DNA of 64,000 bases from Candidatus Micrarchaeota archaeon (GTDB lineage Archaea > Micrarchaeota > Micrarchaeia > Norongarragalinales > SBBD01). This document shows positions 33,152 to 57,096 of the stretch, one piece after another. Below the pieces are notes generated by a model, which was not told the DNA's origin, searched no databases, and worked only from the letters and a program-made list of their open reading frames with translations. Position 1 is the first letter of the stretch. Each line of letters starts with the position of its first letter. The translations under genes and the position numbers were made by a program. The stretch covers positions 1,400 through 65,399 of the forward strand of contig JAZDGU010000018.1 of assembly GCA_043806595.1 (NCBI GenBank). Reading direction: 5' to 3'.

Positions 33152-33157
33152 AAGAAT

Positions 33158-34280: not shown

Positions 34281-34472
34281 ACAATTTGTTGAGCTAGTAC
34301 TTAAATACCATTTGACGACACTATTAGACTTTCCTTTCCCTTTTATTCCTCCTCTTCCCCTGCCTTCCCTGCCTCTCGCTTTCCTGCCGTAACCCTTCCC
34401 CCGGCCTTTTCTCCCCGCAGCGCTGGAACTGCGGAAGAAGGATGTGCAATCGTGTTGGGCGCATGCGTTGCC

Positions 34473-37464: not shown

Positions 37465-40035
37465 TCAGTTCATTTGGACGATCTCGGGCATGTCGGCGGC
37501 AGAAGGCGGCTTTGGCTTGTGAAGAGTGGAGGAGTAATACACTGCGCCGCCTACTAAGGCGACTGCGGCAATGCCCGCGAGCCAGTAGTTGAACGACGAC
37601 TTGTTCGCCCTCGACTTTACCAAAAGGTCGCCGATCTTGACGCGCGCCTTATCCCAAAGCGCCTTGGCGGCATCAAAACGACCCTGGCGTTCCTGTTCCT
37701 TTGCCTGGGAGATGATTTCCTGCACTTCATGCTTCTCGTCATCAAACGGAAGCTCGTCCAAAGCAGCCTCGACCTCCTCGTTCGACTCGGGGATAACTAC
37801 ATACCTGGCGCCAAACAGCGTCGGAGAAGGACAAGGAACGGCAGTAATGGAAGGCCGCGGCGAAGGAGTCGGCGTGCCGTAATAGCCTCCGCCCGAATAA
37901 CCTCCGCCGCCCCCGCCGCCGCAAGTGTAGGCATGCGAACAAACGCCTGCACTGCACGAGTCCGCGGTGCACGAGTTGCCGTCGTCACAGGAAACGCCGC
38001 AGCACAAGTCAAGCTTGACGCACCCGCCCCAAGTCAAGTCCTCGCCGCATGTCCTCATGCCATCGCACTCGCCAAAAGTGCATTCCTCTTGCAAGCCCTC
38101 CTCACCGCAAGGCTCTGGAGTCGGAGTCTGGGAAGGGGTGGGAGTCGACGTAACCGTGGGCGTGGCAGTCGGGGTGGCGGAAGGCGTCGGAGTCGGCGTG
38201 CTGGCTGAATAGCACTGGCCGTAGCAGCAGTACTGGCCCGAAGGGCACGAGCCGGTGTAGTCCGGCCAGCACTGGCCCCAATGGCCGCACGTATCGCCGA
38301 AACAACTGCCGCCCATCGTGCCGCACTCCGTGCCAGGCGGGGAAGGCGAGGGCGTTGGAGTGGGTGAAGGAGTGGCAGTGGGAGTCGCGGTAACCGTGGG
38401 GGTCGGAGTGACTACGCCCTCGCACTGCGTCAGGCAGCAGTAGTCGGAATCGCCCGCGGGAAGCCATTGGTCGCCCGGACAAACCTCATCCGGCGAACAC
38501 ACATACCCGCCCTGTTCGGCGCAGGTCGGGAGCAAGGCCTCGCTGGCGAGGTACAGCACCCAGTCGAGGGAGGGGTTGTTCGGAGGGGAGAGCACGAGGT
38601 TGCCGGGACCCACGGTGCCCTGCGATGCGACGGTTCCCGCGCGCGGGTCGAACCACGCGAAAGCGAAGTCGTGCGCGATTTCCGAGGCGCTCAGCGTCAC
38701 GGTTCCGCCCGCGGGCTCGAAGCAAATGTAGCCGACTGCGGTTTCCGCTAGGCAATGCGCGTCAGAGCCCGCGGACTGCAGGACCGTGTCGCGGGGGGAC
38801 ATGCGCTGGAAGGCAGGCTGCAGGGAATCGAAGAAGGCGTCGAATTCGGCTAGCCCGGAACCCGTGCCGGTGCCCGCGGCGCCGCCGACCAAGGCCATCC
38901 AGAGCTTCCTGCGCATGTTGATGTCGTTGTCGTCGTCGTTGAACCCGAATTCCTCGTTGATGAGGGGCTTCGGCGGGTTGGGGAGAAGGTAGTTCGTCCT
39001 CGTGTGCAGGTAGTTGCCTTGGTAGGAGACGCCGTTGCCCGCCTGCGTCGCCATGAAGTCGAACAACGGGTTGTTGGGGAAGGCGAAGTTGCCGGTCAGG
39101 CCGTGGATGGACACGGGCCTGCCGAAGGGATTGTAGGATTGCGCGTACCCGGAGAAGGTGAGCGCCTCGTTCTGCGAGAAATACTCGTCCCACTCGAGCG
39201 CGACCACGAACATGGTGTTATAGGCGGAAAGGCGGGACATCGCGTACTTGATGTAGCGCTCGGCTGCGGGGAAAGGGATGCTGCCCGTCCAGAAGCCGCC
39301 GTCCGAGAAGAACCACAGCTCGGCGACGATGCCTTCGAGTGCGAGGCGCGCGATTTCCTGCTCATAAACCTTCCAGTGCGCGAGGTTCATGTGCTCCAGG
39401 TCGGGGCTGTTGATGCTGCCCAGCCAAGGATTCGTAGGGTAAGCCGCGATATAGTCGTTGCCGTTGGCGAGGTAGATGTTCATCTTGTTGGCGCGGATCG
39501 CGCGCGCCCTCGCGAGGTACTGCAGGCGGTGGGCCTCGTTCACGTTGTCCGACAGGTACAGGTGCGTCCAGCGAACGGGGTCGGGGCCGGCAACGCGGTC
39601 GAGGAAGTTGCCGTGCAGGTGGACGGAATCGCCCTCGGAATAACGGAACCAGTGGCCGTTGTCGGGGTCGACGATTATGGGACCCTTGTTGGCGGAAGGC
39701 AGCACGGTCACGGTTCCGGTCAGCCCGTCCATTGAGGAGTGCCCGGAGGACGTGACGTAGGTCCAAAGGCCTTCCTCGTCGCCCGCGAACCGCACGCTCC
39801 ACACGTTCCCGGTCTGCCCGCCGTTGCCGTCGCCCTCGAAAAACCCGAAGGCGACGATTTGCCTCTGCGTGTGGCTGGTGAAGGTGACGGTCAGGTCGAC
39901 GTCGAAGGGGTTGGAATAGGCGTTGGTGGACACGAAGTCGATGGAGAGCACGTCGTGCTTGGGAATCTGGTAGTCGGCGGCGGCCGAAGTGCATAGGAAG
40001 AGGAGAAGGGTGAAGGCGGGAACAAGTCGACGCAT
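37465..40035 (-). CDS. Cell-surface glycoside-hydrolase-like protein (DUF5060 + DUF4038/GH140-like) with PT linkers, Cys-rich modules and C-terminal TM anchor
   Basis: Signal peptide MRRLVPAFTLLLFLCTSAAA. The N-terminal Ig-like domain and TIM-barrel region are conserved (NPFDVDL, FFEGDGNGG, WSVRF). It also has TPTPT linkers, two Cys-rich blocks, and C-terminal WLAGIAAVALVGGAVYYSSTLHKPKPP. Confidence 0.65.
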   Translation of the reverse strand: MRRLVPAFTLLLFLCTSAAADYQIPKHDVLSIDFVSTNAYSNPFDVDLTVTFTSHTQRQIVAFGFFEGDGNGGQTGNVWSVRFAGDEEGLWTYVTSSGHSSMDGLTGTVTVLPSANKGPIIVDPDNGHWFRYSEGDSVHLHGNFLDRVAGPDPVRWTHLYLSDNVNEAHRLQYLARARAIRANKMNIYLANGNDYIAAYPTNPWLGSINSPDLEHMNLAHWKVYEQEIARLALEGIVAELWFFSDGGFWTGSIPFPAAERYIKYAMSRLSAYNTMFVVALEWDEYFSQNEALTFSGYAQSYNPFGRPVSIHGLTGNFAFPNNPLFDFMATQAGNGVSYQGNYLHTRTNYLLPNPPKPLINEEFGFNDDDNDINMRRKLWMALVGGAAGTGTGSGLAEFDAFFDSLQPAFQRMSPRDTVLQSAGSDAHCLAETAVGYICFEPAGGTVTLSASEIAHDFAFAWFDPRAGTVASQGTVGPGNLVLSPPNNPSLDWVLYLASEALLPTCAEQGGYVCSPDEVCPGDQWLPAGDSDYCCLTQCEGVVTPTPTVTATPTATPSPTPTPSPSPPGTECGTMGGSCFGDTCGHWGQCWPDYTGSCPSGQYCCYGQCYSASTPTPTPSATPTATPTVTSTPTPSQTPTPEPCGEEGLQEECTFGECDGMRTCGEDLTWGGCVKLDLCCGVSCDDGNSCTADSCSAGVCSHAYTCGGGGGGGYSGGGYYGTPTPSPRPSITAVPCPSPTLFGARYVVIPESNEEVEAALDELPFDDEKHEVQEIISQAKEQERQGRFDAAKALWDKARVKIGDLLVKSRANKSSFNYWLAGIAAVALVGGAVYYSSTLHKPKPPSAADMPEIVQMN

Positions 40036-40213
40036 GGCCAAACCACCGGACATTGAAGAGCAGGTAATCAAATAAAAACGCAGCGCATTCCCGGGGGGGA
40101 AAAGGGGTGCGGGGGCGAGGGGCGGGGGGTGGGAGGACAGGGCACATGGGGGCAAGGCGTATAAATTAGGCCGCCGCAAAGCATATCATAACGGAGGGGC
40201 GGGGGTGGTTTGA

Positions 40214-41161: not shown

Positions 41162-41280
41162 CTCCGCGGGACTTGCCCGCCATGGTTGCCGGCCGCCGGT
41201 TCAAGCAGGACCAACTCCTCCAGCGCCTGCGCCAGCAGCCCAGCGTAGGCTCTCGCGTCGACTTCCTCCGGCTTCGCCAT
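41149..41280 (-). CDS. Small ORF (43 aa) MAKPEEVDARAYAGLLAQALEELVLL..., paralogous to the peptide encoded at 42928-43095
   Basis: ATG start. Shares 17/25 residues with the other copy, with mostly synonymous nucleotide differences. Confidence 0.25.
   Translation of the reverse strand: MAKPEEVDARAYAGLLAQALEELVLLEPAAGNHGGQVPRSQRR
41196..41275. repeat. Copy B of a diverged ~75-bp direct repeat (partner at 42931-43010)
   Basis: About 73% nucleotide identity in direct orientation with the partner copy. Confidence 0.5.
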
Positions 41281-41299
41281 TGCCAGCGGGGGCTTGCCC

Positions 41300-42613: not shown

Positions 42614-42852
42614 GACAACGCCTTTTCTACCGCCTCCTCGATTACGCCGCCGGGGTACGTCGTGGGGACTGGGGTGGGCACCGGCGTGGCCGTAGCCGTC
42701 GGAGTCGGAGTTGCCGTGAGCGTGGGGGAAGGGGTTTGCGTCGGGACAGGAGTCGGGCCGGCGGCGGGCTGGGTGCAGCCGGCTGTGAGCAATGCGGTGA
42801 AAGCGATTGCCGCGAAGACCATGCCGGTTTGCTGTGCACGGTCCATGCGCAT
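42610..42852 (-). CDS. Small lipoprotein with PT linker
   Basis: Signal and lipobox-like LLTAGCTQ, then a PT-rich tract. Its stop overlaps the start of the next gene. Confidence 0.4.
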   Translation of the reverse strand: MRMDRAQQTGMVFAAIAFTALLTAGCTQPAAGPTPVPTQTPSPTLTATPTPTATATPVPTPVPTTYPGGVIEEAVEKALS

Positions 42853-42930
42853 CGGATTAAGGCACGCGACCGCCCTTTATATTGCTTTGGCACTACCGCC
42901 GGGGGTAGTTGAATCAGCCGGGGCGCTACA

Positions 42931-43010
42931 ATGCCAACAGCTCCTCCAGAGACTGCCCCAGCAGCCCGGAATAGGCGGCGATATCCAATTCATCCGCCTT
43001 GGCGCGGCTG
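42931..43010. repeat. Copy A of the diverged ~75-bp direct repeat
   Basis: Encodes ...AKADELDIAAYSGLLGQSLEELLAL* on the minus strand. Only a GTG start is available. Confidence 0.5.
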
Positions 43011-43555
43011 GCGGGCTTGGCGCCGTGGACGGTCAGAACGAAGTCGATGGAATGGCGGCTGTCGCCGTCCTCGCCCTGAGTCGTCCACGTATGCACAACC
43101 CCCTACCCTTTCTCCCTTCGTTCCAGTTACACTGGATTGAAATTGCCGGGGCGGTGGTTAAATCTTCGTTGCCGCACGCATCTCCCGCCGGTGTCCAGCG
43201 ACGGGTCCGAACAGCCGGAATAGGCCTGCACGCAAAGCGGGAAGACGATGAGGAGAACCAGCACGGGACCGGCCGCGGTCGCAGGAATTCGCATTTGCCT
43301 TCGACACTAATAGGGGAAGGAGGTATATATTGCTTTCAAATGGAGGTCAGGGTTTCCTGCCGGGGATTAAACGGCATTATCCGATTGCAAATGAGTTTGA
43401 AAGACACACCCCTGAAGCGAACATGTTGAATGCCAACCAACGACTTCGGGGCCATTGCCGCCGGACGCACTAAGGGATACTACTTCAGCGCAAGGAAAAA
43501 CGGCATGCAGGCGAAAGCGTTTTAACCCCCGGGCGGCAAAGCCAATGCGATTGGA

Positions 43556-44938
43556 ATGGACGGCAAGAGGCAGATCGAGAGGGTGAAAAGCGCGGTCCTG
43601 CCGGTGGCAGGCGCGTTGGTCCTCGGGCTGGCTGCGCTGCTGTTCCTTTCCGCGATACGCGCCAGCCTTTTCTCCGACACCGGCCATGAGACGCGCATCT
43701 GGTTCGAGATAACCTTCCTGCTTCTGCTCGCGGTGCTCGCCGAACTGCTCGTGTTCTACCTCAGGCAGCCGGTGGTGATGGTGCTGCTCCTCGTCGGCGT
43801 GTTAATCGCCCCGGGAACCATCAACCTTACCTGGCCGGTCATCGCCGGAATAATAAACGCGCTGCTTTCGGCGGTATCAAACTGGAACATTCCAACCCAA
43901 GTGCCAAACCTGGTGCCCCTCGAGGGGACGGTGATGGTCTTCGCCAAGCTCGGCTCCATCATCCTTCTGTTCCAGATCGGACTTCATTCGGAGATACAGA
44001 AGATATTCAACGGCAAGAACTTCGTTGTGGCCATCCTAGGGGTCGTGCTGCCGTTCGCCGCGGGGTTCGCCTACGCGTCGTGGACGGGCGGCGGGTTCGC
44101 ATACGCGCTTTTCCTCGGCGCGGCCCTGACGGCGACGAGCGTGGGAGTGACGGTCGCCGTGCTCCAGGAGTTCGGCGTGATGAACAAGGACTACGCGCAG
44201 ATAATCCTCGGAGCCGCCGTTATCGACGACATCCTCGCGCTGCTCGCGCTTTCCTTCGTCAAGAACGTGCCGACGGCGCTTACCCCCGAGGCGCTCACGC
44301 CGCTCGCGATGGTGCTCGCGACTGCCGCGGTGTTCGTCATCGGCGGGATAAAGCTCGGCCAGTTCATCGTCCACAGGTACTTCTACAGGTACACCGACGA
44401 GACATTCTCGAAAAAGACATTCCTGCTGGCGATGGCATTCCTGCTCATGTACGCGTACGTCGCGGAAGTCGTCGGGCTGTCGGCGATAGTCGGCGCGTTC
44501 ATCGCCGGCATAACCCTCAACTACAGCCCAGTGATCCGCAAGATAAACGAGCTCATGGCGCCACTGGAAATGCTGTTCACGCCGATTTTCTTCATCTCGC
44601 TCGGAATGTTCGTGGACGTGGAGTCGATTCCCGGCGAGATTGTCCCGATTCTCGTCATTAGCGTAATCGCAGTGCTGGCAAAAGTCGTCGGGTGCGGAGG
44701 AGCGGCGCTGCTGGGCGGCGCCGGCAGGAAGGACGCGCTAATCGTCGGGCTGGGCATGGTCCCCCGCGGCGAGATCGCGCTCATCATCGGCCTCTACGGC
44801 CTCACGGCGATGGTGAACGGCGAGCCGGCAATCACTGCAGCAGAGTACACGATAATCTCGGCGATGGCGTTCATCACGACCATTATCGTGCCGCCAATAC
44901 TGCAGAAGATGATTACCGTAAAGGCATCGGCGGCCTAG
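43556..44938 (+). CDS. Cation:proton antiporter, CPA2 (Kef/NapA-type)
   Basis: 12-13 TM helices, a Na+/H+ exchanger fold, and C-terminal GMVPRGEIALIIG. Confidence 0.8.
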   Translation: MDGKRQIERVKSAVLPVAGALVLGLAALLFLSAIRASLFSDTGHETRIWFEITFLLLLAVLAELLVFYLRQPVVMVLLLVGVLIAPGTINLTWPVIAGIINALLSAVSNWNIPTQVPNLVPLEGTVMVFAKLGSIILLFQIGLHSEIQKIFNGKNFVVAILGVVLPFAAGFAYASWTGGGFAYALFLGAALTATSVGVTVAVLQEFGVMNKDYAQIILGAAVIDDILALLALSFVKNVPTALTPEALTPLAMVLATAAVFVIGGIKLGQFIVHRYFYRYTDETFSKKTFLLAMAFLLMYAYVAEVVGLSAIVGAFIAGITLNYSPVIRKINELMAPLEMLFTPIFFISLGMFVDVESIPGEIVPILVISVIAVLAKVVGCGGAALLGGAGRKDALIVGLGMVPRGEIALIIGLYGLTAMVNGEPAITAAEYTIISAMAFITTIIVPPILQKMITVKASAA

Positions 44939-44992
44939 GTAATCCTGCATGCTTGGGCGGAGAAAATGGATTCGCTGATCGTTGAACCGCGG

Positions 44993-45008
44993 TTCCACGA
45001 TCGTGGAA
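44993..45008. promoter_or_regulatory. Perfect 16-bp palindrome TTCCACGATCGTGGAA upstream of otsA, plus TATA-like tttttatatc at about 45016-45028
   Basis: Seen directly. A candidate operator for the trehalose operon. Confidence 0.3.
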
Positions 45009-45210
45009 GCACAATTGATACGTTTTTATATCTCGGAAAGCCCCAAACAAGGAGCCGGGTGAAATCTTCCCGGATGGCCGATCGGGCGGATTGCTTTCCG
45101 CGGGGAAGAGTCGCAGCGGCATGGTTTATCCTGTCCGATGCCGCGTACTGGCTGAACGGCCAATGCCGTGAATAACTGATGGGCGCGTACATCAAGCGTG
45201 GAAAAAACGG

Positions 45211-46665
45211 ATGAACCAATTCATTTCGAAGATAACCGAGAGGCTGGCCGGAAGGAGGCTCATCGTGGCGTCGAGCAGCGAACCGTACGTCCACTATTTG
45301 GAGGAGGAGGAAATCAAGTGGAGGCGTGGCACCGGGGGAGTGGTGACCGCGCTGGACCCGGTCCTCGCAGCCACAGGCGGGACGTGGGTCGCCCAGTCGT
45401 CGGGGGACGCCGACCGGCAGGCCTGCGATGAGAAGGGGTACGTGAAGGTCCCGCCGGAAAGCGGGGCGTACACCCTCAAGCGCATCTTCGTATCGAAAAA
45501 GGACGCGGCCGCATGCGGCAACGCGGCGAACGGCGCGCTCTGGCCGCTTTCGCACATAGTATACGTGAGGCCGCGTTTCGTCGACGAGGAATGGGAGGCA
45601 TTCCGGCAGGTTAACCGGCGGTTCGCGGAGGCGATAGCCGAGGAGGCCAAAAAAGGCGAAAGCGTCGTCTGGCTCAACGACTACCAGCTCGTGCTGTGCG
45701 CGAAATACGTTAAGGAGCTGGTTCCCGACGTGCCGACGGTCTACTTCTGGCACATCCCGTGGCCGAACCCGCAGGTCTTCAAAATCTGCCCCTGGCACGT
45801 GGAAATCATGGACGCGGTGCTCTCCAACGACATCATCGGGTTCCACACCCGCTACCATTCCGTCAACTTCCTGGACTCCGTGGACCAGACGATCGAGGCC
45901 CGCGTAGACCGCCCGGCGTCGTCCGTGCACTACAAGGGCAGGGAGGTCACCGTGCGCGCGCTGCCCATCAGCGTCGACTTCGACGGGATTAGCGCCGCAG
46001 CGGAAAATGTCGGCGAGGGCGCGATTAGGAGGGCGAAGCGCAGGTACGGCATAGGCAAGGGGGCGCTGGTGGTCGGCATCGACCGCATGGATTACACGAA
46101 GGGATTGGCGGAGAAGATCAAGGCTATTGACGAATTCCTGCAGAAGCACCCAGAAAGCGCCGAAAAAATCACGCTCGTGCAGATTGCCTCGCCGACGCGC
46201 ACGCACCTCGAGGCATACAGGCAGACTGCGGAGGAGGTGGAAACGCTCGTGGAGGAGGTCAACTGGAGGAACTCCACCGACTCGTGGAAGCCCATTATCT
46301 TCGAGAACAGGTATGCGTCCACGGAGGAAATCTACACGCTCTACGGCCTCGCGGACGTATGCATCATCACGCCGCTCCATGACGGCATGAACCTCGTCTC
46401 GAAGGAGTTCGTGGCCGCGAAAAACGACGGCAACGGCGTGCTCATACTGAGCAAGTTCGCCGGCTCGAACGCGGAGCTCAAGGACGCGCTTTCCGTCAAC
46501 CCGTTCTCCACGAACGAGGTCGTCGCCGCGCTGGAGACCGCGCTCCAGATGCCGATTGAGGAGAGGCGGGAACGGATGACGCGCCTGCGCGCGGAAGTCG
46601 GTGAAAACAACGTCTTCAAGTGGGCCTCGGATTTCCTGAGCATGGCCGCCAAGGTAAGGGGTTGA
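45211..46665 (+). CDS. otsA: Trehalose-6-phosphate synthase (GT20)
   Basis: GT20 hallmarks WLNDYQL, FWHIPWP and GIDRMDYTKG. Confidence 0.85.
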   Translation: MNQFISKITERLAGRRLIVASSSEPYVHYLEEEEIKWRRGTGGVVTALDPVLAATGGTWVAQSSGDADRQACDEKGYVKVPPESGAYTLKRIFVSKKDAAACGNAANGALWPLSHIVYVRPRFVDEEWEAFRQVNRRFAEAIAEEAKKGESVVWLNDYQLVLCAKYVKELVPDVPTVYFWHIPWPNPQVFKICPWHVEIMDAVLSNDIIGFHTRYHSVNFLDSVDQTIEARVDRPASSVHYKGREVTVRALPISVDFDGISAAAENVGEGAIRRAKRRYGIGKGALVVGIDRMDYTKGLAEKIKAIDEFLQKHPESAEKITLVQIASPTRTHLEAYRQTAEEVETLVEEVNWRNSTDSWKPIIFENRYASTEEIYTLYGLADVCIITPLHDGMNLVSKEFVAAKNDGNGVLILSKFAGSNAELKDALSVNPFSTNEVVAALETALQMPIEERRERMTRLRAEVGENNVFKWASDFLSMAAKVRG

Positions 46666-47447
46666 CTGCCGTGCGCGTTCCACACACGTTCCGCAGACGG
46701 CTCGGCGAATGCAAGCGCCTCCTGTGCGCGTTCGACTTCGACGGGACGCTCTCCGAGATCGCCCCCACGCCCGGGCAGGCAGCGGTATCCCGGGGAATGC
46801 GCGAGATGCTCGTCCGGCTGGAGGGGCTCGCCGACGTCGTAATCGTGAGCTCGAGGAGGGCGGGCGAGCTCAGGAAAAAGCTGCCTTTCCTCAGGCGCGC
46901 AGGATTCTACGGAATGCATGGGCTGGAGACCCCGCACGGCAAGCTGAAGGTGCCCCGGGGGCGTCTGGCCGCTGTCGAATCGGCAAAGGCGGAGGCGGCA
47001 AGGCTCATCGCACCGTTCAAGGGCGCATGGATAGAGGGCAAGGATTCCGGATTCTCGGTGCATTTCAGGGACGTCGCGCCCGCAAGGCAGGAACCGCTCG
47101 CGGAGGCGCTGATGCGGAAGATGAAAAGCAGGCGACTGCTGGTCTACCGCGGGAGGAAGGCGGTTGAAGTGCTCGCCCGGGGAAGCCCCACGAAGGCCTC
47201 CACGCTGCACTCGATTTCAAGACGATTGCCGCAGGGCACGCTTATGCTTTTCTTCGGCGACGACGAGGCCGACGAGGCCGCGTTCCAGGCGCTCGCACGC
47301 GAAAAGAACTTCGTAGGCGTCGCGGTGGGCAGGAAAAAGACGTCCGCGGGGCTGACCGTGATAAACCCGCGCGGAGTCGAGGAATTCCTGCGCTATATTA
47401 ATAACCTCCTATCGCTAACGAATCCGGCGGGAGGGCCGCCGGTGTGA
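46620..47447 (+). CDS. otsB: Trehalose-6-phosphate phosphatase (HAD)
   Basis: HAD motif I FDFDGTL and C-terminal GDDEADE. The true start is probably a few codons after 46665. Confidence 0.75.
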   Translation: MGLGFPEHGRQGKGLTAVRVPHTFRRRLGECKRLLCAFDFDGTLSEIAPTPGQAAVSRGMREMLVRLEGLADVVIVSSRRAGELRKKLPFLRRAGFYGMHGLETPHGKLKVPRGRLAAVESAKAEAARLIAPFKGAWIEGKDSGFSVHFRDVAPARQEPLAEALMRKMKSRRLLVYRGRKAVEVLARGSPTKASTLHSISRRLPQGTLMLFFGDDEADEAAFQALAREKNFVGVAVGRKKTSAGLTVINPRGVEEFLRYINNLLSLTNPAGGPPV

Positions 47448-47451
47448 AACG

Positions 47452-48810
47452 ATGCACGCGCTGAACAAGTACGCCGAGTTTTCGGGCCACGGGGTCATCG
47501 ATGCGATAAGAAGGGAGGCCGGCGACCTCGAGGGCAAGTCGTTCGTCCACGTCAACTCCACCTACTACGGGGGCGGGGTCGCGGAAATGCTCAACTCCTA
47601 CGTCCCGATGCTCAACGACGCCGGCGTGAGCATGGACTGGCGACTTCTCAAGGGCAGCAAGGAATTCTTCTTCATAACCAAGAAGCTGCACAACGCGCTG
47701 CAGGGAAAGCGCGAGATGCCGTCCGCGGAGGAAATCGCGGCGTACGAGGAAACTGTGGCGACGAACGCGAAGTTCTCGAACCTGCGGATGTACGACTGCG
47801 TGATCATCGACGACCCCCAGCCAGCGCCGCTCGTAAACCATTTCCCGAGGAGCTCGCCGGCGCTTTGGAAGCCGCTTCCGCTGCTGCTCGAGCTCGAGGC
47901 CTTCCAGCGCAGGCAGCCGTGGGTGTGGCGCGCGCACATAGACATGAGCAATTCCTACCCTCCCGCGCTCGAACTCATGCGGAAATACATTTCAAAATAC
48001 GACGCGGCCATAGTGTCCCTCCCGTCGTACGCGAAAAATCTGGGAAAGCCGTTCTTCGTCATCCCGCCGGCAATCGACCCGCTATCCGAGAAGAACAGGC
48101 CCATGACCCCCGATGACGCCGAGCGCCTGCTGGGCAGGTTTGGAGTCGATTGCAGGAAGCCGATCGTCGCCCAGATCTCGAGGTTCGACCCGTGGAAGGA
48201 CCCGCTGGGCGTCATCGCCGCGTTCAAGTCGGTGCGGAAGAAGGCGAAATGCCAGCTGGTCATGCTCGGCAGCCATGCCGCAGACGACCCCGAGAGCGAG
48301 ACCGTCTTCCAGCAGGTATTCCGCATAGCCGAGAAGGAGAAGGACGTGGCCCTGCTCACCGTGCAGAGCGACATGCTGGTGAACGCCCTACAGCGCAAGG
48401 CGAGCGTAATCGTGCAGAAGTCCGTGCGCGAGGGATTCGGGCTGACCGTCAGCGAGGCCCTGTGGAAGGGCACTCCCGTCGTGGCCTCGCGCGTGGGAGG
48501 CATCCCGCTGCAGGTCGACGACGGCCTCAACGGCTTCCTCGTCACCGGGACCAAACAGTGCGCGGACAGGATAAGCTACCTGCTGAAGAACCCGGCGACG
48601 GCGAAGGCGATGGGCGCCGCTGGCGCGGAAAAAGTGCGAAGGAACTTCCTCATGCCGCGGCTGGTCCTCGACGAGATCCGCATGCTGAAGAAGATGACCA
48701 AAGCGGGAAAGACCATACGCCCGCCAAAGGCGGTGGAAGCGTTCCTCGGTCTGCTAAAAAAGACCCCGCGCATCGTGCGCAGGGGGCTCAAGCTGCTCGC
48801 AAACGACTGA
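47452..48810 (+). CDS. treT: Trehalose glycosyltransferring synthase TreT (GT4)
   Basis: HVNSTYYGGGVAEML, DPQPAP, WRAHIDMS, QISRFDPWKD and REGFGLTVSEALWKG align across the full length with Thermococcus TreT. Confidence 0.8.
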   Translation: MHALNKYAEFSGHGVIDAIRREAGDLEGKSFVHVNSTYYGGGVAEMLNSYVPMLNDAGVSMDWRLLKGSKEFFFITKKLHNALQGKREMPSAEEIAAYEETVATNAKFSNLRMYDCVIIDDPQPAPLVNHFPRSSPALWKPLPLLLELEAFQRRQPWVWRAHIDMSNSYPPALELMRKYISKYDAAIVSLPSYAKNLGKPFFVIPPAIDPLSEKNRPMTPDDAERLLGRFGVDCRKPIVAQISRFDPWKDPLGVIAAFKSVRKKAKCQLVMLGSHAADDPESETVFQQVFRIAEKEKDVALLTVQSDMLVNALQRKASVIVQKSVREGFGLTVSEALWKGTPVVASRVGGIPLQVDDGLNGFLVTGTKQCADRISYLLKNPATAKAMGAAGAEKVRRNFLMPRLVLDEIRMLKKMTKAGKTIRPPKAVEAFLGLLKKTPRIVRRGLKLLAND

Positions 48811-48841
48811 AGGCACAGGACGGATTGGTGCAGGAGCGGGT

Positions 48842-50146
48842 TCAGACTATGCGCGGCCTCTGCTTGGAGTACCGGCCCTGCTGCCCGGGCTGCGGCCGCC
48901 TGCCCTCTGGAGAGCCCGGAGCCGGGGAAGCCGGCTGGACGCCTGCGGGCTGCGGCTGGTTCTGCGGCTCGGGCGGCCGGGGGGAGGCGTAGACGCCGAT
49001 GGTGGCGATGAGGTTCGTCGCAACGATGATGAGCAGCACGGCCTCGGCGAAATACGGAATCTGTATGCCTTGCGTCGCCGGGTAGGAAGCGAGAACCGCG
49101 GCGGCGAGGCCTCGGGGCAGCATGGTGGTGAGAACCAGCTTGTACTGCAAAAGCCTCCGGTCCAGCCGGACGGCCAACTCGACGCCGATGTAGCGCGCGG
49201 CGAGGACGGCCGCGAGCGCGACGAAGGCGATTACCCATGCGGCGGAAGGCAGGGAGAAGACGTTGAAGAGCGTTCCGAGGTAGACGAAGAAGAACGTGCG
49301 CACGAAGAACGTGATCTCCGTCTGGAAGGCGCGGAACGTGTCATCCAGCTTGAAGTCCAGCGGTATCTTGAAGCGCTCGGCGATGTTGGACGCGTTGCCG
49401 ACGGCGAGGGCGAAGACGAGGACGGCGATCGCGCCGCTGGCCCTGACGGCCTCGACGAAGGAGTACAGCAGGAAGATGGCGGCAAGGGAGAGCATGTAGG
49501 CGTACGGCTTTTCGGCCAGCCGCCTCAGCACGGATATCCAAGCTACGGCGGCCACGAGCCCCAGAAAGGTCGCAATCGCAAACGCACCGATGAACGAGTT
49601 CAGGGCAACGGAGAGATTCACCGAGTTGTGGGCGACGATGTCGAGGAGGGAAACCGCGACGATGATGGAGAGCGCGTCGGTCAGGGCGGACTCTAGGGCG
49701 AGAACCGCCTTTACCGATTCCGCGATGCGCATCCGCGAGACGATGCCGAGGACTATGGATGAAGACGTTCCTCCGACGACCGCACCCAACAGCAGGCCGT
49801 GCGCGAGCGGCCAGCCGAAGGCCGCGGCCATGAACGCGCCCATCGCAAGCACCGTCATGAAGAACGCGGCGAAAGTGAACGCGGTCGCACTGGAGAGTTC
49901 GTTGAGCACGCGGAAGAAGTCGAGGTTGATGCCGCCGTCGAACAGCAGGATTATCAGCGCTATCGTCCCGATGAACGGCGCGGCGGACGAGAACAGCGCC
50001 TCGTCGACGAGATGCAGCCCCGGGCCGACGAGGATGCCGAGGAGCATGAGCAGCAGCGCGTCGGAAATGCGCGTGCGCTCGAACACCGCCGAGGCGAGGA
50101 ACCCGACGACTATGATGACGCCGATGAGGGTGAAAAGTTCGAGCAA
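48842..50146 (-). CDS. Na+/H+ antiporter, NhaP/CPA1-like
   Basis: Polytopic (about 12 TM) with an exchanger-type TDA/ND motif region and a Pro/Gln-rich cytoplasmic tail. Confidence 0.7.
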   Translation of the reverse strand: MLELFTLIGVIIVVGFLASAVFERTRISDALLLMLLGILVGPGLHLVDEALFSSAAPFIGTIALIILLFDGGINLDFFRVLNELSSATAFTFAAFFMTVLAMGAFMAAAFGWPLAHGLLLGAVVGGTSSSIVLGIVSRMRIAESVKAVLALESALTDALSIIVAVSLLDIVAHNSVNLSVALNSFIGAFAIATFLGLVAAVAWISVLRRLAEKPYAYMLSLAAIFLLYSFVEAVRASGAIAVLVFALAVGNASNIAERFKIPLDFKLDDTFRAFQTEITFFVRTFFFVYLGTLFNVFSLPSAAWVIAFVALAAVLAARYIGVELAVRLDRRLLQYKLVLTTMLPRGLAAAVLASYPATQGIQIPYFAEAVLLIIVATNLIATIGVYASPRPPEPQNQPQPAGVQPASPAPGSPEGRRPQPGQQGRYSKQRPRIV

Positions 50147-50203
50147 ATCATTGCACCTGCCATGCCGTTAGCCGCGCCGGGATTTTAAACGTTTCACTGA
50201 ACT

Positions 50204-51145
50204 TCATCCTCCCCCGAGGAACTGGATAATGAAGAAAGCGAGGTAGCCGAAGATGAGGAGGAGGCCGTCGCGCTTCTGCAGGCCGCCGCGGATCACGATG
50301 AAATACAGGAGGACGATGTTGGCGATGACGGAGAAGACCACCAGCTGGACCGCCGGCGCGAAGGAAATCTGGGGGTTGATGACGAGCGCAGTGCCGAAGA
50401 CGAGGGAAAGGTTCGTGATGGCGCTGCCGACGGCGTTGCCGATGGCCATGCTCTCGCGCCTCTTGAGCGCCGAGACCACGCTCACGGAAAGCTCGGGAAG
50501 CGTCGTGCCGAGGGACACGATCGTGGCGCCGATGACGGTCTCCGCGACGCCCCACGTCTGGCTGAGCGCGATGGCGTTGTCGACCGCGACCTGCGCCGCG
50601 ACGATGACGAGCGCGATGAAGAAGCTGAACTTCGACAGCGGGGGCGCCAGAGAATGCAACGACGGGGGCGCGCGCTTGGCATCCGCACGCGCCCGGCCGC
50701 TGTGCACGAGGAGCCAGTAGACGTAGGCAAGGTAGACTAGGAGGAGCCCCGCGCCGGCAAGCCGGTTCGGGTTGTAGACCACCATCAGCAGGGAGATCAG
50801 GCTCGTCGCAAGAAGCACCATCACGAGGTTCCCGGTCTCCTTGCGCTTGATGTGGACGACGCCGAGGAATGCCGCGACTCCGACAACGAGGGAAACGTTG
50901 ACGAGGTTGGCGCCGAAGACGTTTCCGACGGACAGGTCGGTGGCGCCGCGGAACGCCGCCGAGACCGACACCACCAGCTCGGGAAGCGAGGTGGCGGCCG
51001 AAAGGAGGATGAAGCCGATGGCGAGGTCGCTGACGCCCAGCTGGCGCGCCAGCAGGGCCGCGTAAGTAGTGGTCTTCTCGCCGGCCTTGAATATGACGAC
51101 GACGCTGCCGGCAAGCAGGAGGAAAGGCAGAAACCACTCGTTCAA
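50204..51145 (-). CDS. Ca2+/Na+ antiporter, CaCA family (YrbG-like)
   Basis: Two alpha-repeats: SLPELVVSVSAAFRG and GNAVGSAITNL...TTLPELSVSVVSA. Confidence 0.8.
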   Translation of the reverse strand: MNEWFLPFLLLAGSVVVIFKAGEKTTTYAALLARQLGVSDLAIGFILLSAATSLPELVVSVSAAFRGATDLSVGNVFGANLVNVSLVVGVAAFLGVVHIKRKETGNLVMVLLATSLISLLMVVYNPNRLAGAGLLLVYLAYVYWLLVHSGRARADAKRAPPSLHSLAPPLSKFSFFIALVIVAAQVAVDNAIALSQTWGVAETVIGATIVSLGTTLPELSVSVVSALKRRESMAIGNAVGSAITNLSLVFGTALVINPQISFAPAVQLVVFSVIANIVLLYFIVIRGGLQKRDGLLLIFGYLAFFIIQFLGGG

Positions 51146-51211
51146 GGCAAATCAACCTTTAGGCGTTAGGCCGGAAGCTTATAAAAAACGGCGCTCTCTG
51201 CGGACGACGGG

Positions 51212-51706
51212 TCAGGCCGGCGGAACCCCGTCGGGCGATGCTGGTTCAAGCGGCTCGACAGCCGGAGGCTTGGGTTTGCGCAGGGAAGAGGAATAGTACA
51301 CCGCGCCGTCGACGCTGTCGAGGATGATGCACGAGAAGCCGCCGGGCACGGAGAAGATGCGCCGCCAGTTGGCCTCCTCCTCGACGCCGTCGCGGGAGAA
51401 CACGCGGAGCAGGAGCGTATTGTCCTCCACGGCGCGCAGGTCCGCGCCGGCGCGCTTGCCGAGGCCGACGAGCAGGTCGAAGTCGATGCTCCAGTAGCGG
51501 TCGTGGTAGTCCGCCCACTGGAGGTAGAGGATGCGGGACTCCGGGCGGGCGTTGCGCGCGATGATGCTGCACGCGAGCCAAGAGAGCCAGCGCGCGCTCG
51601 GCGAGCGCAGGGTCAGGATGCCGCCGCTCACGCCGAGCAGCGCGTCAAGGTCCGGCCTGCCGGTCAGCAAGCGTTGCATGGTCGCGGTTTCCGCGGTCGA
51701 GAACAT
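51212..51706 (-). CDS. RecA-superfamily (KaiC/RadA-like) fragment lacking Walker A, ending in the GAVYYSSSLRKPKPP tail
   Basis: LTGRPDLDALLGVSGGILTL resembles the KaiC N-terminus but has RSPSARWL in place of GxxGxGKT. A Walker-B-like IILDS follows, then the tail shared with the 37465-40035 protein. Confidence 0.35.
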   Translation of the reverse strand: MFSTAETATMQRLLTGRPDLDALLGVSGGILTLRSPSARWLSWLACSIIARNARPESRILYLQWADYHDRYWSIDFDLLVGLGKRAGADLRAVEDNTLLLRVFSRDGVEEEANWRRIFSVPGGFSCIILDSVDGAVYYSSSLRKPKPPAVEPLEPASPDGVPPA

Positions 51707-51995
51707 CGAGGTCGCACCTCATGCGGGTCAGCATCACCAGGAGGATGGCGACGCCGATGTCCGCCTCGTCCGCGGCGTCGATGGCGGTGCGCCGGTTGCG
51801 CGCGCGGGAAAGAAGCGAGTCGAAGGCCTCGCGCTCGTGCGCCGGCAGGGAGTCGCGCAGGCCGCGCCAAGAGGCCAGCTTGGAGTCGAGCCTCGCCGTA
51901 ACCGAAGGAATGCTCCTGCCCATACGCCCCCAACCCCGTAGCAGGGAAGCGTTGGGGCGGGAGGGTAATAAGGCCGTTGCGGGACCGCGTTTCCG

Positions 51996-53099
51996 GTGCG
52001 GTTAAAAAACTCCGCCGGGGACACTCTTTGCATGGGCTTGCGCGAAAGGGAGCTGGAAATCCGCGGGAAGCTGCGGCCGTTTGTCGAGAGGTCACTGGGG
52101 GACAAGACTCCGCTGGACACCAGGCACCCGCACGCAAGGCCGATAATAATGGAGCTGAGGAGGGTGCGCGACGGGAATGGCGTGCCGTACGCGGGCCACG
52201 GCACGTTCCGCGGCTACCTCGAGAAAAGGTTCGGGTACATGGGCCACCACGGCCTGGCATATATGCACCCGAGGGAAGCCATCGACTATGCGGAGAGGCT
52301 CGCGGCAATGATTCTGCCGAGGCAGGACCGCAGGAGGAGGAGGCAGCCGCTCAGGCCGGAGGACTGGAGGGTCTGGGATACTGCTAGAAGGATGCTGCAC
52401 GAGCACGGATGGTTCGACTTCCAGGAGCTGGCAAGGAACCACGGGGACCTCACGCGCACCCAGCTCGTCTACATCGTGGGCAAGCTCCAGCTCGCGAAAG
52501 TACTGGGAAAGGCGCCAAAAAGGCGGAGCGCGAGGAGGACGAAAGACAAGAGGAAGGCGGACGAGAAGCACGAACTATATAGGATGTACGAGCACCTCGT
52601 GCCCGAACTCGCGCGCCAGATTGCAAGGCGATACGGGGGCCTTTTGGAGAGGGACGAGATCGAGTCCTCTAACCGCATGGCGCTGCTGCGGACGGTAAGG
52701 AAGCTCGACAAGCGTGCAGCCGAGCTGAGGAAGGTGCAGTACATCCGGAGGGCGATGATCAACGCAGCAAGCAACCTCGCAAGGCATGCCGGAAGAGGCC
52801 GCGCGGACATGCATATCACCGGAAGAGACGGGGAGAATCTGCAGGAAGGGGGTTCCGCAAACGGCGCGGAAGATGTGACCCGGGGTCATGAGACGATGGA
52901 AGGAGTGCGGCAGCTGCTGGAGCTGCACCGCGCCGGAAGGATGACCGAGAACCACGTGCTGGCGCTGCTGCTGAACGGAAGGCACGGCCTGCAGGCAACG
53001 CAGATCAGGGGGATACTCGGAGGGGTTGGCAAGTCGCAGGCGTGCAGGATATTGAAGGAGGCGAAGGAGAGGAGCAGGGTAGGGCCAAGGGGGTCCTGA
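51996..53099 (+). CDS. Sigma-70 region 2 / region 4-like domain protein with unknown N-terminal domain
   Basis: YEHLVPELARQIARRYGG...DEIESSNRMALLRTVRKLDKRAAELRKVQYIRRAMINAASNLARH parallels sigma region 2 (invariant N retained). C-terminal ENHVLALLLNGRHGLQATQIRGILGGVGKSQACRILKEAKER parallels the region 4 HTH. Confidence 0.45.
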   Translation: MRLKNSAGDTLCMGLRERELEIRGKLRPFVERSLGDKTPLDTRHPHARPIIMELRRVRDGNGVPYAGHGTFRGYLEKRFGYMGHHGLAYMHPREAIDYAERLAAMILPRQDRRRRRQPLRPEDWRVWDTARRMLHEHGWFDFQELARNHGDLTRTQLVYIVGKLQLAKVLGKAPKRRSARRTKDKRKADEKHELYRMYEHLVPELARQIARRYGGLLERDEIESSNRMALLRTVRKLDKRAAELRKVQYIRRAMINAASNLARHAGRGRADMHITGRDGENLQEGGSANGAEDVTRGHETMEGVRQLLELHRAGRMTENHVLALLLNGRHGLQATQIRGILGGVGKSQACRILKEAKERSRVGPRGS

Positions 53100-56448: not shown

Positions 56449-57096
56449 CTAAGCGCGCGCGGCTTTTATTACCACCACCTCCTCGAAGAAGAATCTGCGC
56501 GAGGCGGCGATTTCCGCGCAATAGCCGCGGGATTCGAGGAAGCGGACGGATTTTTCGAAGCGCGCGAGGCTGCTGTCCACGAGAAGCATGACGCCGTCCG
56601 CGGCAAGATGGCTGGGGAATTCTTTGAGAAAGCGGTCGGTGACTTTCCTGCCGGAGGGGCCGCCGTCGAGGGCGGAATTCAATGCGCCAGCAACCCTGTC
56701 AACGCGAGACGTCGGCAGGTACGGAGGGTTGAAGGCAATCGTATCAAATGGCTCGCCGCCGAGGCCGGAGAAGAGGTCGGACCGGATGAAGGAATTGGGA
56801 AGGGGAATGCGGTTGGAGGAGGCGTTGAACTGGGCGCAGGAAACGGCGAGCGGGCTGATGTCCGCAAAGGAGACGGAGGACACCTTCGGGGACCTCGAGG
56901 CGGTGATGCCCTGCATGCCCGTGCCGCAGCCGAGGTCGAGGAAGCGGCCGGAGGCGAGGCGCGCGACCGCGGAGGCGAGAAGCTCGGAGTCCTCGCGCGG
57001 GCCGTAGACGCCGGGAAAGACCGCGAGCGTGATGCCTGCGAAGTCAAGGGCGCCGATGGCGGACGCGTCGTCCCGCTTTGCTTCTTGGGAGTGCAT
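56449..57096 (-). CDS. Protein N5-glutamine methyltransferase (HemK/Mtq2-like)
   Basis: Motif I LDLGCGTGMQG and catalytic NPPY (FNPPYLP). Confidence 0.7.
   Translation of the reverse strand: MHSQEAKRDDASAIGALDFAGITLAVFPGVYGPREDSELLASAVARLASGRFLDLGCGTGMQGITASRSPKVSSVSFADISPLAVSCAQFNASSNRIPLPNSFIRSDLFSGLGGEPFDTIAFNPPYLPTSRVDRVAGALNSALDGGPSGRKVTDRFLKEFPSHLAADGVMLLVDSSLARFEKSVRFLESRGYCAEIAASRRFFFEEVVVIKAARA

What the first reader, a model, noticed from the sequence alone, without database searches (positions are those of the whole stretch)
37465..37560. Conserved C-terminal tail peptide GAVYYSS(S/T)L(R/H)KPKPP shared by a surface glycosidase-like protein and an unrelated RecA-like fragment, with a possible archaeosortase nearby
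The 904-aa surface protein ends ...LVGGAVYYSSTLHKPKPPSAADMPE and the ORF at 51212-51706 ends ...VDGAVYYSSSLRKPKPPAVEPLEP. That is 13 of 15 residues identical, encoded with different synonymous codons, which points to protein-level constraint rather than a DNA repeat. In the surface protein the tail follows PT linkers and a TM helix, the general layout of sortase/archaeosortase C-terminal sorting signals. A short polytopic protein with a Cys...N-x-x-R arrangement lies at 57044-57598. The motif may be an unrecognised sorting or processing tag. The RecA-like fragment may be a gene-fusion remnant carrying the same cassette.
Basis: seen in the sequence. Interest (0 to 1): 0.55.

Follow-up and report, generated by a model that had tools for sequence, protein, structure and literature searches.

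The report
Shared membrane-anchor tail, one copy a remnant
The shared peptide is the inner-membrane end of an unannotated C-terminal anchor module that many secreted proteins of Micrarchaeota carry, and its second copy in the window is a leftover fused onto a truncated gene by a genome rearrangement, so it is probably not a new sorting tag.

Summary
Both ORFs contain GAVYYSS(T/S)L(H/R)KPKPP (13/15 identical). The DNA differs at 12/45 bases, 10 of them at third codon positions. No resampled window reached 13/15.

The motif is not a free-standing tag. It is the last turns of a transmembrane helix plus a basic/proline stop. It sits inside a ~110-aa C-terminal stalk-and-anchor module: acidic segment, helical hairpin, aromatic belt, TM helix, YYSS..KPP, then a variable Pro-rich tail. 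At least 5 and at least 7 signal-peptide proteins per genome carry the module in two other Micrarchaeota MAGs. All those named are "hypothetical", and no Pfam or NCBIfam model covers the module.

The 164-aa ORF is a chimera. Its homology to a 226-aa, possibly RecA-like, family stops at codon 134. That gene's usual PolB neighbour survives only as two short remnants. An ~8.2-kb transporter/trehalose block lies between ORF2 and the nearer remnant. The ORF's last 30 codons match a carrier gene's native 3' end.

ORF 57044-57598 is a genuine archaeosortase-family protein with invariant Cys, Arg and His, but it fits no named subfamily. A link to the module is possible but atypical. The motif is cytoplasmic, 14 to more than 45 residues follow the helix, and no known CTERM model matches.

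Verdict: partly supported, modest interest.

The parts
37465..40035 (-). Carrier gene (856 aa plus stop). It has a signal peptide, DUF5060, an apiosidase-like glycosidase domain, Collagen_bind_2, Cys-rich and PT linkers, and the C-terminal anchor module.
   Evidence: P0004 is the same protein called from M49. Its N-terminus is MRRLVPAFTLLLFLCTSAAA|DY.
37468..37800 (-). C-terminal stalk-and-anchor module (last 111 aa): acidic IPESNEEVEAALDELP, helical hairpin, aromatic belt SFNYW, TM helix, YYSSTLHKPKPP and a short tail.
   Evidence: An exhaustive phmmer search gave 20 hits with the same module. Alignment A3. AlphaFold, pLDDT 80: the hairpin's second helix runs through the membrane to ...YYSSTL.
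37534..37584 (-). Transmembrane core WLAGIAAVALVGGAVYY.
   Evidence: Read from the sequence. It lies within the continuous predicted helix 57-108 of the 126-aa fragment.
37504..37548 (-). Motif copy 1, GAVYYSSTLHKPKPP, in its native context.
51305..51706 (-). ORF2 codons 1-134. This is the N-terminal 60% of a 226-aa family (P0002, P0003), possibly RecA/RadA-like with a degenerate Walker A.
   Evidence: 57% identity to P0002 over residues 1-134 only. RadA/DMC1 are the top PDB hits but with weak E-values.
51212..51304 (-). ORF2 codons 135-164 plus stop. This is the captured 3' end of a different carrier gene. Together with the shared Gly134 codon it holds motif copy 2 at 51263-51307, and it ends in a natural-looking Pro-rich tail ...GVPPA*.
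   Evidence: The profile of the module matches only this stretch, at profile positions 94-113. ORF2 residues 122-163 align over 42 aa at 50% identity to the native C-terminus of carrier P0005 in L017. The codon-position pattern is the same as between genuine carriers.
43052..51304 (.). Block of about 8.2 kb lying between the two synteny breakpoints: Na+/H+ exchanger, OtsA, OtsB, TreT, a second Na+/H+ exchanger, Na+/Ca2+ exchanger and the carrier-gene tail.
   Evidence: Pfam. Breakpoints.
42929..43051 (-). Remnant A of the family-B DNA polymerase that follows the 226-aa gene in the relative. It corresponds to PolB residues 620-660.
   Evidence: tblastn: 58.5% identity over 41 aa, E 8.5e-8.
41209..41298 (-). 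Remnant B of the same PolB C-terminal region, residues 629-658.
   Evidence: tblastn: 56.7% identity over 30 aa, E 6.7e-4. Also seen as direct repeat D10.
51721..52005 (+). Small divergent gene upstream of ORF2. It serves as the synteny anchor to the relative's locus.
   Evidence: 50% identity over 68 aa to the stretch just upstream of P0002 in L001/L002.
57044..57598 (-). Archaeosortase-family protein (184 aa, polytopic) from a Micrarchaeota clade that fits no named subfamily.
   Evidence: TIGR04178 at 27.1 bits against a cutoff of 23. ArtD reaches only 19 bits against a cutoff of 125. 40 homologues were found, several named exosortase/archaeosortase family protein and carrying PF09721. C84, N123, R126 and H146 are invariant. 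No named subfamily model is reached by the window protein, and the 24 members give only weak hits spread over many subfamily models.

Best explanation
The shared peptide is the cytoplasm-facing end of a C-terminal membrane anchor.

In the 856-aa glycosidase-like protein it sits in its native setting. A Sec signal peptide exports the protein. A single C-terminal helix extends from a short extracellular helical hairpin, crosses the membrane and ends at ...GGAVYYSSTL. HKPKPP then stops the helix with positive charge and prolines on the inside, and a short Pro-rich cytoplasmic tail follows. This whole module of about 110 aa is a conserved and so far unannotated cassette. Micrarchaeota attach it to many different large ectodomains, with several carriers per genome. 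Most likely it holds them on the cell surface as type-I membrane proteins (inferred).

The second copy did not evolve as a tag on a cytoplasmic protein. A rearrangement placed an ~8.2-kb transporter/trehalose block into an ancestral operon of a 226-aa gene followed by PolB. It removed codons 135-226 of the first gene and about 620 codons of PolB. It joined the last 30 codons of another carrier gene in frame to codon 134 of the truncated gene, at a shared Gly codon. That tail has no signal peptide and no intact TM helix in front of it, so it cannot act as an anchor or sorting signal there.

The third-position bias of the differences was inherited from the divergence of two functional carrier genes.
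For: Module:
- Exhaustive phmmer with the last 111 aa finds 20 proteins sharing hairpin + TM + YY[SA]S..[RK]..PP.
- Full-length carriers (826-1356 aa) have signal peptides and different ectodomains.
- Seven loci come from one MAG (JAZDFO01) and at least five carriers from another (KJ765).
- AlphaFold at pLDDT 80 shows one continuous helix ending at YYSSTL.
- No Pfam, NCBIfam or PDB family covers the module.
- Distant members keep a conserved coiled coil of about 50 aa after the TM helix, so the cytoplasmic side appears to be retained.

Chimera:
- Homology of ORF2 to P0002/P0003 ends at residue 134 of 226.
- The upstream neighbour is syntenic.
- The downstream PolB is reduced to remnants at 42929-43051 and 41209-41298.
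- The module profile hits only ORF2's last residues.
- ORF2's tail aligns along its length to the native C-terminus of carrier P0005.
- ORF2's motif is as far from the window's other copy (12 nt) as from six of the seven carrier copies found in two other genomes (11-14 nt; the seventh, L008, differs at 18). The codon-position bias is the same.
- No other database protein has the chimeric form.
Against: - No expression or proteomic data exist, so retention of the TM anchor rather than cleavage is inferred.
- ORF2 keeps an intact frame and coding-like GC3 of 0.90, so a function for the fusion protein cannot be excluded.
- The donor arrangement (a carrier gene directly upstream of the Na+/Ca2+ exchanger) was not found in any relative.
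- The direction and number of rearrangement steps are inferred from only one reference genome (the P0002 locus, held as L001/L002).
Confidence: 0.7

Rival explanations
1. The module, including the YYSS..KPP segment as its positively charged inner part, is the cognate C-terminal sorting signal of the unclassified Micrarchaeota archaeosortase. The enzyme would cleave carriers near the outer aromatic belt (K-x-S-F-N-Y-W) and attach them to a lipid, as ArtA does with PGF-CTERM proteins.
For: - The archaeosortase-family gene is intact, with invariant Cys, Arg and His.
- Its clade matches no subfamily that has a known signal.
- All three genomes that could be checked (the window, JAZDFO01, KJ765) have both the enzyme and several carriers.
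- Carriers have signal peptides and a C-terminal TM helix followed by basic residues, and there are several per genome. This is the typical distribution of such signals.
Against: - 14 to more than 45 residues follow the helix, and in some members a conserved cytoplasmic coiled coil does. From my recollection of the family descriptions, not checked here, known exosortase and archaeosortase signals end a few residues after the basic cluster.
- There is no Pro-containing signature before the TM helix.
- No PGF/PEF/PEP/VPXXXP/PACE-type model matches.
- The enzyme sits in a housekeeping neighbourhood far from any carrier.
- No carrier-free or enzyme-free genomes were examined, so the co-occurrence is uninformative.
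- The window holds a more canonical candidate substrate at 24684-26009.
Confidence: 0.12
2. The tail is a functional short linear motif that also works on the cytoplasmic ORF2 protein, for example as a docking or degradation signal for a cytoplasmic partner. The fusion would then have been kept by selection.
For: - ORF2 is an intact in-frame ORF with coding-like composition.
- The tail is cytoplasmic in its native context too.
- Several carriers share a second small tail motif ([IV].LP[AP].P.E), which hints at a cytoplasmic binding function.
- A protein without the hairpin shares the RKKPPQAP tail.
Against: - The fusion form is unique among 5.8 billion clustered proteins.
- ORF2 lacks the last 92 residues that its family conserves.
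- It sits at a rearrangement scar beside PolB remnants.
- The synonymous pattern is fully explained by divergence before the fusion.
Confidence: 0.06
3. Carriers are substrates of regulated intramembrane proteolysis by the M50 site-2 protease encoded next to the archaeosortase. The conserved GG/AG near the inner end of the helix and the YYSS cap would form the cleavage region.
For: - An M50 protease gene is divergently adjacent to the archaeosortase in four genomes.
- Small helix-destabilising residues (GG, AG, AS) are conserved near the cytoplasmic end of the TM helix.
Against: M50 proteases are near-universal housekeeping genes. Adjacency is to the archaeosortase and not to carriers. There is no direct evidence.
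Confidence: 0.05
4. The match is a chance similarity, or a DNA repeat such as att sites of an integrated element.
For: The two copies are direct, on the same strand and 13.7 kb apart.
Against: - 0 of 40 resampled windows reach 13/15 identity.
- No DNA-level similarity is found: 12/45 mismatches, mostly synonymous.
- The interval encodes transporters, trehalose genes and an HD-domain protein, none with an integrase or transposase Pfam domain; one 437-aa ORF there has no Pfam hit.
- The same motif occurs in many genomes.
Confidence: 0.01

Closest known systems
PGF-CTERM / archaeosortase A, and the related PEF-CTERM/ArtC and PACE-CTERM/pacearchaeosortase pairs
   Same: Several signal-peptide surface proteins per genome share a C-terminal TM helix followed by basic residues. 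An archaeosortase-family gene with invariant Cys, Arg and His is present in the same genomes. That ArtA recognises PGF-CTERM and ArtC recognises PEF-CTERM is stated in PMC5244752, citing Haft et al. 2012.
   Different: The conserved unit is about 110 aa with a helical hairpin, not about 25-30 aa. There is no Pro-Gly-Phe-type signature before the helix. 14 to more than 45 residues follow the helix. No CTERM model matches. The enzyme fits no named subfamily.
SlaB-type stalk anchors of Sulfolobales S-layers (coiled-coil stalk plus C-terminal TM helix)
   Same: An extracellular helical stalk runs directly into a single C-terminal TM helix, giving a type-I anchor for surface proteins. A TM stalk protein has been proposed as the missing anchor of the Micrarchaeota S-layer (bioRxiv 10.1101/2021.04.28.441871).
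   Different: No sequence similarity was detected. Here the stalk is a short hairpin attached to enzyme-like and adhesin-like ectodomains, not a dedicated S-layer partner. This comparison rests on architecture only.
LPXTG-type sortase signals of Gram-positive bacteria
   Same: A TM helix plus a basic tail at the C-terminus. Members give weak sub-threshold hits to LPXTG/LAXTG anchor models because of this layout.
   Different: There is no LPXTG-like motif. The organism is an archaeon. The hits are below cutoff and reflect composition only.
Gene-fusion scars from illegitimate recombination (chimeric ORFs at insertion or deletion junctions)
   Same: ORF2 combines the 5' part of one gene with the 3' end and native stop of another. 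The junction is at a shared Gly codon, beside remnants of the deleted neighbour.
   Different: Nothing unusual. The fusion happens to be in frame.

Membership tests
Exosortase/archaeosortase family (ORF 57044-57598) | Match to the family signature model TIGR04178 above its curated cutoff | tested here: met
   27.1 bits against a cutoff of 23. All 24 aligned homologues match, with best E 9e-12. PF09721 is precomputed for the window's protein and for many homologues.
Exosortase/archaeosortase family (ORF 57044-57598) | Conserved catalytic-type Cys and Arg (and His) in a small polytopic membrane protein | tested here: met
   C84, N123, R126 and H146 are invariant in 24 sequences. That these are the catalytic residues rests on knowledge of ArtA and exosortases, not on a test here.
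Named archaeosortase subfamilies (ArtA-F, pacearchaeosortase, heimdallarchaeosortase) | Score above the subfamily model's cutoff | tested here: not met
   The best is ArtD at 19.2 bits against a cutoff of 125. The 24 aligned members give only weak hits (best E 2e-8) spread over many subfamily models; their bit scores were not listed.
Archaeosortase/exosortase-type C-terminal sorting signal (the tail or module) | Signal lies at the extreme C-terminus, with the basic cluster within the last few residues | tested here: not met
   After the YY that ends the helix there are 22 residues in the window's protein. Other carriers have 14 to more than 45, or a coiled coil of about 50 aa.
Archaeosortase/exosortase-type C-terminal sorting signal (the tail or module) | Short signature motif on the outer side, directly before the TM helix | tested here: inconclusive
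A conserved outer belt [KR]..K[AS]S[FY]N[YW] exists but resembles no known signature.
Archaeosortase/exosortase-type C-terminal sorting signal (the tail or module) | Several carriers per genome, all with N-terminal signal peptides | tested here: met
   Seven loci in JAZDFO01, at least five in KJ765, and one plus a remnant in this window. Signal peptides were read in full-length members.
Archaeosortase/exosortase-type C-terminal sorting signal (the tail or module) | Strict co-occurrence with a dedicated sortase subfamily across genomes | tested here: inconclusive
   Three of three genomes have both. No genome lacking either could be examined.
Archaeosortase/exosortase-type C-terminal sorting signal (the tail or module) | Match to a known CTERM signal model | tested here: not met
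   No PGF/PEF/PEP/VPXXXP/PACE-type hit at E<=1 for the protein or for 18 module sequences.
Archaeosortase/exosortase-type C-terminal sorting signal (the tail or module) | C-terminal cleavage and lipid attachment of the mature protein | not testable with these tools
   Needs proteomics or lipid analysis.
Type-I (signal peptide plus C-terminal TM) membrane-anchored surface protein | N-terminal Sec signal peptide, a single C-terminal hydrophobic helix, and positive charge after it | tested here: met
   MRRLVPAFTLLLFLCTSAAA|DY at the N-terminus. WLAGIAAVALVGGAVYY lies within a predicted continuous helix and is followed by HKPK. No dedicated signal-peptide predictor was available.
RecA/RadA/KaiC-like ATPase (ORF2 and its 226-aa family) | Significant match to RecA-superfamily models, and Walker A/B motifs | tested here: inconclusive
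   No Pfam hit at E<=10 or E<=1. A PDB profile search puts RadA/DMC1/Rad51 on top, but at E 0.08-0.6. The Walker A position reads SPSARWLS, with no GxxxxGK[ST]. hhhhD (IILD) is present (sequence).

The most novel reading that the evidence does not exclude
The ~110-aa hairpin-TM-YYSS..KPP module is the cognate recognition domain of a Micrarchaeota-specific archaeosortase clade (a 'micrarchaeosortase'). It would be an unusually long signal that tolerates cytoplasmic extensions, and it would define a new sortase/signal pair that anchors the surface proteome of a DPANN phylum.
Probability: 0.12. Interest if true: 0.55.

Novelty: new member of a known kind. Interest (0 to 1): 0.3.

Why it matters
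Micrarchaeota are host-dependent DPANN archaea. Their cell-surface proteins presumably mediate contact with hosts, and how their surface layer is anchored is an open question (bioRxiv 10.1101/2021.04.28.441871).

A conserved, unannotated stalk-and-anchor cassette shared by five or more large secreted proteins per genome gives a simple handle for listing the anchored surface proteome of this lineage. It would justify a new domain model. The co-resident unclassified archaeosortase still lacks a known substrate.

The RecA-like carrier that made the finding look striking is only a rearrangement scar. It shows how synonymous-site divergence can be inherited by a dead fragment.

Tried and rejected
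1. A search of the 5.8-billion-protein index with the two-tail alignment A2 returned 'no candidate shares three 5-residue words'. Even the window's own proteins were missed, so I treat this as a limit of the word index for very short queries and not as evidence of absence.
2. The 18-sequence alignment A3 was too divergent for locus scanning. It was replaced by the six closest sequences, A4.
3. A metagenome scan for relatives of the Na+/Ca2+ exchanger, meant to find the donor arrangement of carrier gene then exchanger, found none.
4. The contexts of carriers P0010, P0005 and P0006 show no exchanger downstream.
5. The att-site or integrated-element idea for the two direct copies 13.7 kb apart is rejected. 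There is no DNA similarity, 12/45 positions mismatch, and none of the genes in the interval has an integrase or transposase Pfam domain (one 437-aa ORF there has no Pfam hit).
6. The 43-nt direct repeat D7 (43007-43049 and 51446-51488, 74% identical) is judged to be chance. It does not coincide with the ORF2 breakpoint, and many repeats of similar quality were listed.
7. An exact-sequence look-up of ORF2 in the assembly collection found nothing on record.
8. Haft et al. 2012 (PMC3256604) is not held in the library.
9. I did not run fold search on the module model, because a helical hairpin plus one long helix would only give generic matches.
Full report
**1. Observation**

The minus-strand ORF 37465..40179 ends ...FNYWLAGIAAVALVGGAVYYSSTLHKPKPPSAADMPEIVQMN*. 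The minus-strand ORF 51212..51706 (ORF2) ends ...FSCIILDSVDGAVYYSSSLRKPKPPAVEPLEPASPDGVPPA*.

- Thirteen of 15 residues are identical.
- The 45 nt differ at 12 positions, 10 of them at third codon positions.
- blastn with 7-nt words finds no DNA similarity in the 2-kb surroundings. tblastx finds only the 18-aa match.
- The motif occurs only twice in the six-frame translation.
- It is the only pair in the window with at least 12/15 identity. Forty second-order Markov resamples gave maxima of 10-12.
- Shared 7-mers alone are common by chance in this GC-rich DNA.

**2. The organism and the carrier protein**

Homologues of several window genes come from Candidatus Micrarchaeota MAGs. Genes here have GC3 of about 0.8-0.9, and ORF2 fits that pattern at 0.90.

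The surface protein is called in the database from Met49 (856 aa, P0004; start at 40035). It begins with a typical signal peptide, MRRLVPAFTLLLFLCTSAAADY. Its Pfam domains are DUF5060, an apiosidase-like catalytic domain and Collagen_bind_2. Cys-rich and Pro/Thr linker regions follow.

**3. The motif belongs to a larger module**

An exhaustive phmmer search with the last 111 residues against 1.84 billion representatives gave 20 hits at E<=1e-3. Eighteen of them share one C-terminal architecture; the other two (P0011, P0016) are multi-stretch repeat matches without it:

- an acidic segment ([IV]PETNEEVE.AL.ELP);
- a helical hairpin with a TPR-like turn (LEKQG[RK]..EA..LW.KA);
- a basic/aromatic belt ([KR].R..K[AS]S[FY]N[YW]);
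- a hydrophobic helix;
- YY[SA]S[ST][LM][RH]..[KP]PP;
- a variable tail, often proline-rich. It ends within one to nine residues of the basic cluster in three sequences and reaches about 50 residues with a conserved coiled coil in P0018 and P0019.

AlphaFold on this alignment (mean pLDDT 80) predicts three helices. The third runs without a break from the hairpin through the membrane to ...YYSSTL. HKPKPP ends it.

No Pfam, NCBIfam or PDB family covers the module. There are only sub-threshold TPR/ANR-like hits to the hairpin and composition-driven hits to LPXTG-type anchors. No exosortase or archaeosortase CTERM model matches.

**4. Distribution**

Scanning one genome per GTDB species gave eight loci. 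Seven come from a single Micrarchaeota MAG (JAZDFO01) and one from JAHJQN01.

The JAZDFO01 carriers with a complete or nearly complete reading frame run to about 830-1130 codons. They have signal-peptide-like N-termini and different ectodomains. They share the same Cys-rich stalk, the same module, and tails such as ...YYSSTLRGQKPPNQPVPPVAP*.

Five further carriers (P0010, P0013, P0019, P0020, P0023) belong to MAG KJ765. All those named are annotated 'hypothetical protein'.

A divergent member lies next to the L008 carrier. A JAZDFO01 lipoprotein-like protein without the hairpin ends TM-...LRRKPPQAP..., so a basic-KPP-proline tail after a C-terminal helix is more general than the module.

The family is rare in JGI metagenomes, with only one locus found.

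**5. ORF2 is a chimera at a rearrangement scar**

ORF2 has only two relatives besides itself, P0002 and P0003, both 226 aa. Homology covers ORF2 residues 1-134 and stops at ...IILDSVDG, exactly where the shared tail begins. The relatives continue for about 90 more conserved residues.

In the relative's genome the 226-aa gene is followed, with overlapping stop and start, by a 695-aa family-B DNA polymerase.

In the window:

- The small divergent gene upstream of ORF2 is syntenic with the relative.
- That PolB is absent. Two C-terminal remnants remain on the same strand, at 43051..42929 (58.5% over 41 aa, E 8.5e-8) and 41298..41209 (56.7% over 30 aa).
- Between the ORF2 breakpoint (51305) and remnant A (43051) lie two Na+/H+ exchangers, OtsA, OtsB, TreT and a Na+/Ca2+ exchanger. 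None of these has an integrase or transposase domain.

The module profile matches ORF2 only at profile positions 94-113. ORF2 residues 122-163 align over 42 aa at 50% identity to the native C-terminus of carrier P0005, including the Pro-rich end.

ORF2's motif DNA differs from the window's other copy at 12 positions. It differs from six of the seven carrier copies found in two other genomes at 11-14 positions (the seventh, L008, at 18), with the same third-position bias. Pairs of genuine carriers within JAZDFO01 differ at 5-14 positions with the same bias, and pairs involving L008 at 15-19.

Hence the synonymous pattern is what any two carrier genes show. It was inherited by the fragment and says nothing about selection on ORF2.

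In front of the tail ORF2 has no signal peptide and no intact hydrophobic helix (FSCIILDSVDG contains two Asp). The tail therefore cannot anchor or sort ORF2.

The 'RecA-like' label is plausible but weak. RadA, DMC1 and Rad51 are the top PDB profile hits at E 0.08-0.6. There is no Pfam hit, and the Walker A position is degenerate.

**6. The archaeosortase**

ORF 57044-57598 passes the exosortase/archaeosortase signature model: TIGR04178 scores 27.1 bits against a cutoff of 23. It is far below every named subfamily cutoff, with ArtD at 19 against 125.

Forty homologues were found, several named 'exosortase/archaeosortase family protein [Candidatus Micrarchaeota archaeon]'. Cys84, Asn123, Arg126 and His146 are invariant in 24 of them.

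The gene sits in a conserved housekeeping neighbourhood in four genomes and is not next to any carrier. An M50 protease lies divergently on one side. MTQ2/HemK2 methyltransferase, an EamA transporter and a DRG GTPase follow on the other.

JAZDFO01 and KJ765 each encode both this enzyme and several carriers. That is three of three genomes, but there are no negative controls.

**7. Weighing the sorting-signal idea**

For it:
- Carriers are multi-copy and have signal peptides.
- They end in a C-terminal TM helix followed by basic residues.
- An orphan archaeosortase clade is present in the same genomes.

Against it:
- The conserved unit is four times longer than known signals.
- There is no known signature before the helix.
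- 14 to more than 45 residues follow the helix, including a conserved coiled coil in distant members.
- No CTERM model matches.
- The window contains a more canonical candidate substrate at 24684-26009. It has a signal peptide, a NEW3 domain and weak similarity to the PACE-CTERM S-layer family. It ends ...LLVAFFGWKWYKRRDKK*.

I put this reading at about 0.12.

**8. Verdict**

The finding is real. Its most eye-catching aspect, an unrelated cytoplasmic protein sharing the tag, is a rearrangement scar.

What remains is a previously unannotated C-terminal stalk-and-anchor module of Micrarchaeota surface proteins, plus an unclassified but already recognisable archaeosortase. The module is a new member of a known kind, namely type-I anchors of archaeal surface proteins. 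Interest is modest.

Noticed in passing
window 24684-26009 (+): A 441-aa protein with a signal peptide and a NEW3/NPCBM_assoc domain. It shows weak central similarity to NCBIfam 'PACE-CTERM-PROT putative S-layer protein' (32.8 bits, cutoff 110). Its extreme C-terminus is canonical: ...GYTILGIDVLYIGIGIAALLVAFFGWKWYKRRDKK*. This makes it a more conventional candidate substrate for the archaeosortase. It lies next to an FtsX-like permease gene (25982-27280).
   Followed up: partly
window 41209-41298 (-) and 42929-43051 (-): Two diverged remnants of the same C-terminal stretch of a family-B DNA polymerase. They flank two small PT-rich secreted or lipoprotein-like genes (41300-42613 and 42610-42852). 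This suggests repeated rearrangement or duplication at this spot. An intact, different PolB is at 1996-4455.
   Followed up: partly
window 56449-59027, and L011-L014: Gene order is conserved in four Micrarchaeota genomes. An M50 site-2 protease lies divergently on one side of the archaeosortase. MTQ2/HemK2 methyltransferase, an EamA transporter and a DRG GTPase follow on the other. In the window an archaeal-type AAA ATPase (54107-55417) is inserted between EamA and DRG.
   Followed up: partly
window about 30500-34300: A low-GC island (GC 0.41-0.52 against about 0.62 elsewhere). It holds a 615-aa ORF (31304-33151) and a 233-aa ORF with an HNH-like C-terminus (33579-34280). It is probably foreign DNA, possibly a restriction or defence island.
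   Followed up: no
L009 from position 8709 (642-codon open frame, MAG JAZDFO01), and P0023: A lipoprotein-like protein without the helical hairpin ends TM-...VYFVFLRRKPPQAPVQAPLPP.... It shares the RKKPPQAP tail with module carrier P0023. The basic-KPP-proline tail may be a general cytoplasmic feature of Micrarchaeota single-pass proteins.
   Followed up: no
P0018 and P0019 (distant module members), and tails in alignment A3: A conserved cytoplasmic coiled coil of about 50 aa follows the TM helix (...ELIKKFMKREVDY..Y...). Several closer members share a small tail motif [IV].LP[AP].P.E. Both hint at cytoplasmic partners.
   Followed up: no
window 43007-43049 and 51446-51488: A 43-nt direct repeat, 74% identical, between PolB remnant A and the RecA-like part of ORF2. 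At protein level it reads SIDFVLTVHGAKPAS against SIDFDLLVGLGKRAG. I judged it chance, but it lies at the edge of one breakpoint.
   Followed up: no
L017 450-911 (P0005, Logan SRR22388213): A 153-aa ORF that consists of little more than a PT linker and the anchor module. It could be a truncated carrier or a stand-alone stalk protein. Its tail is the closest known match to ORF2's tail.
   Followed up: no
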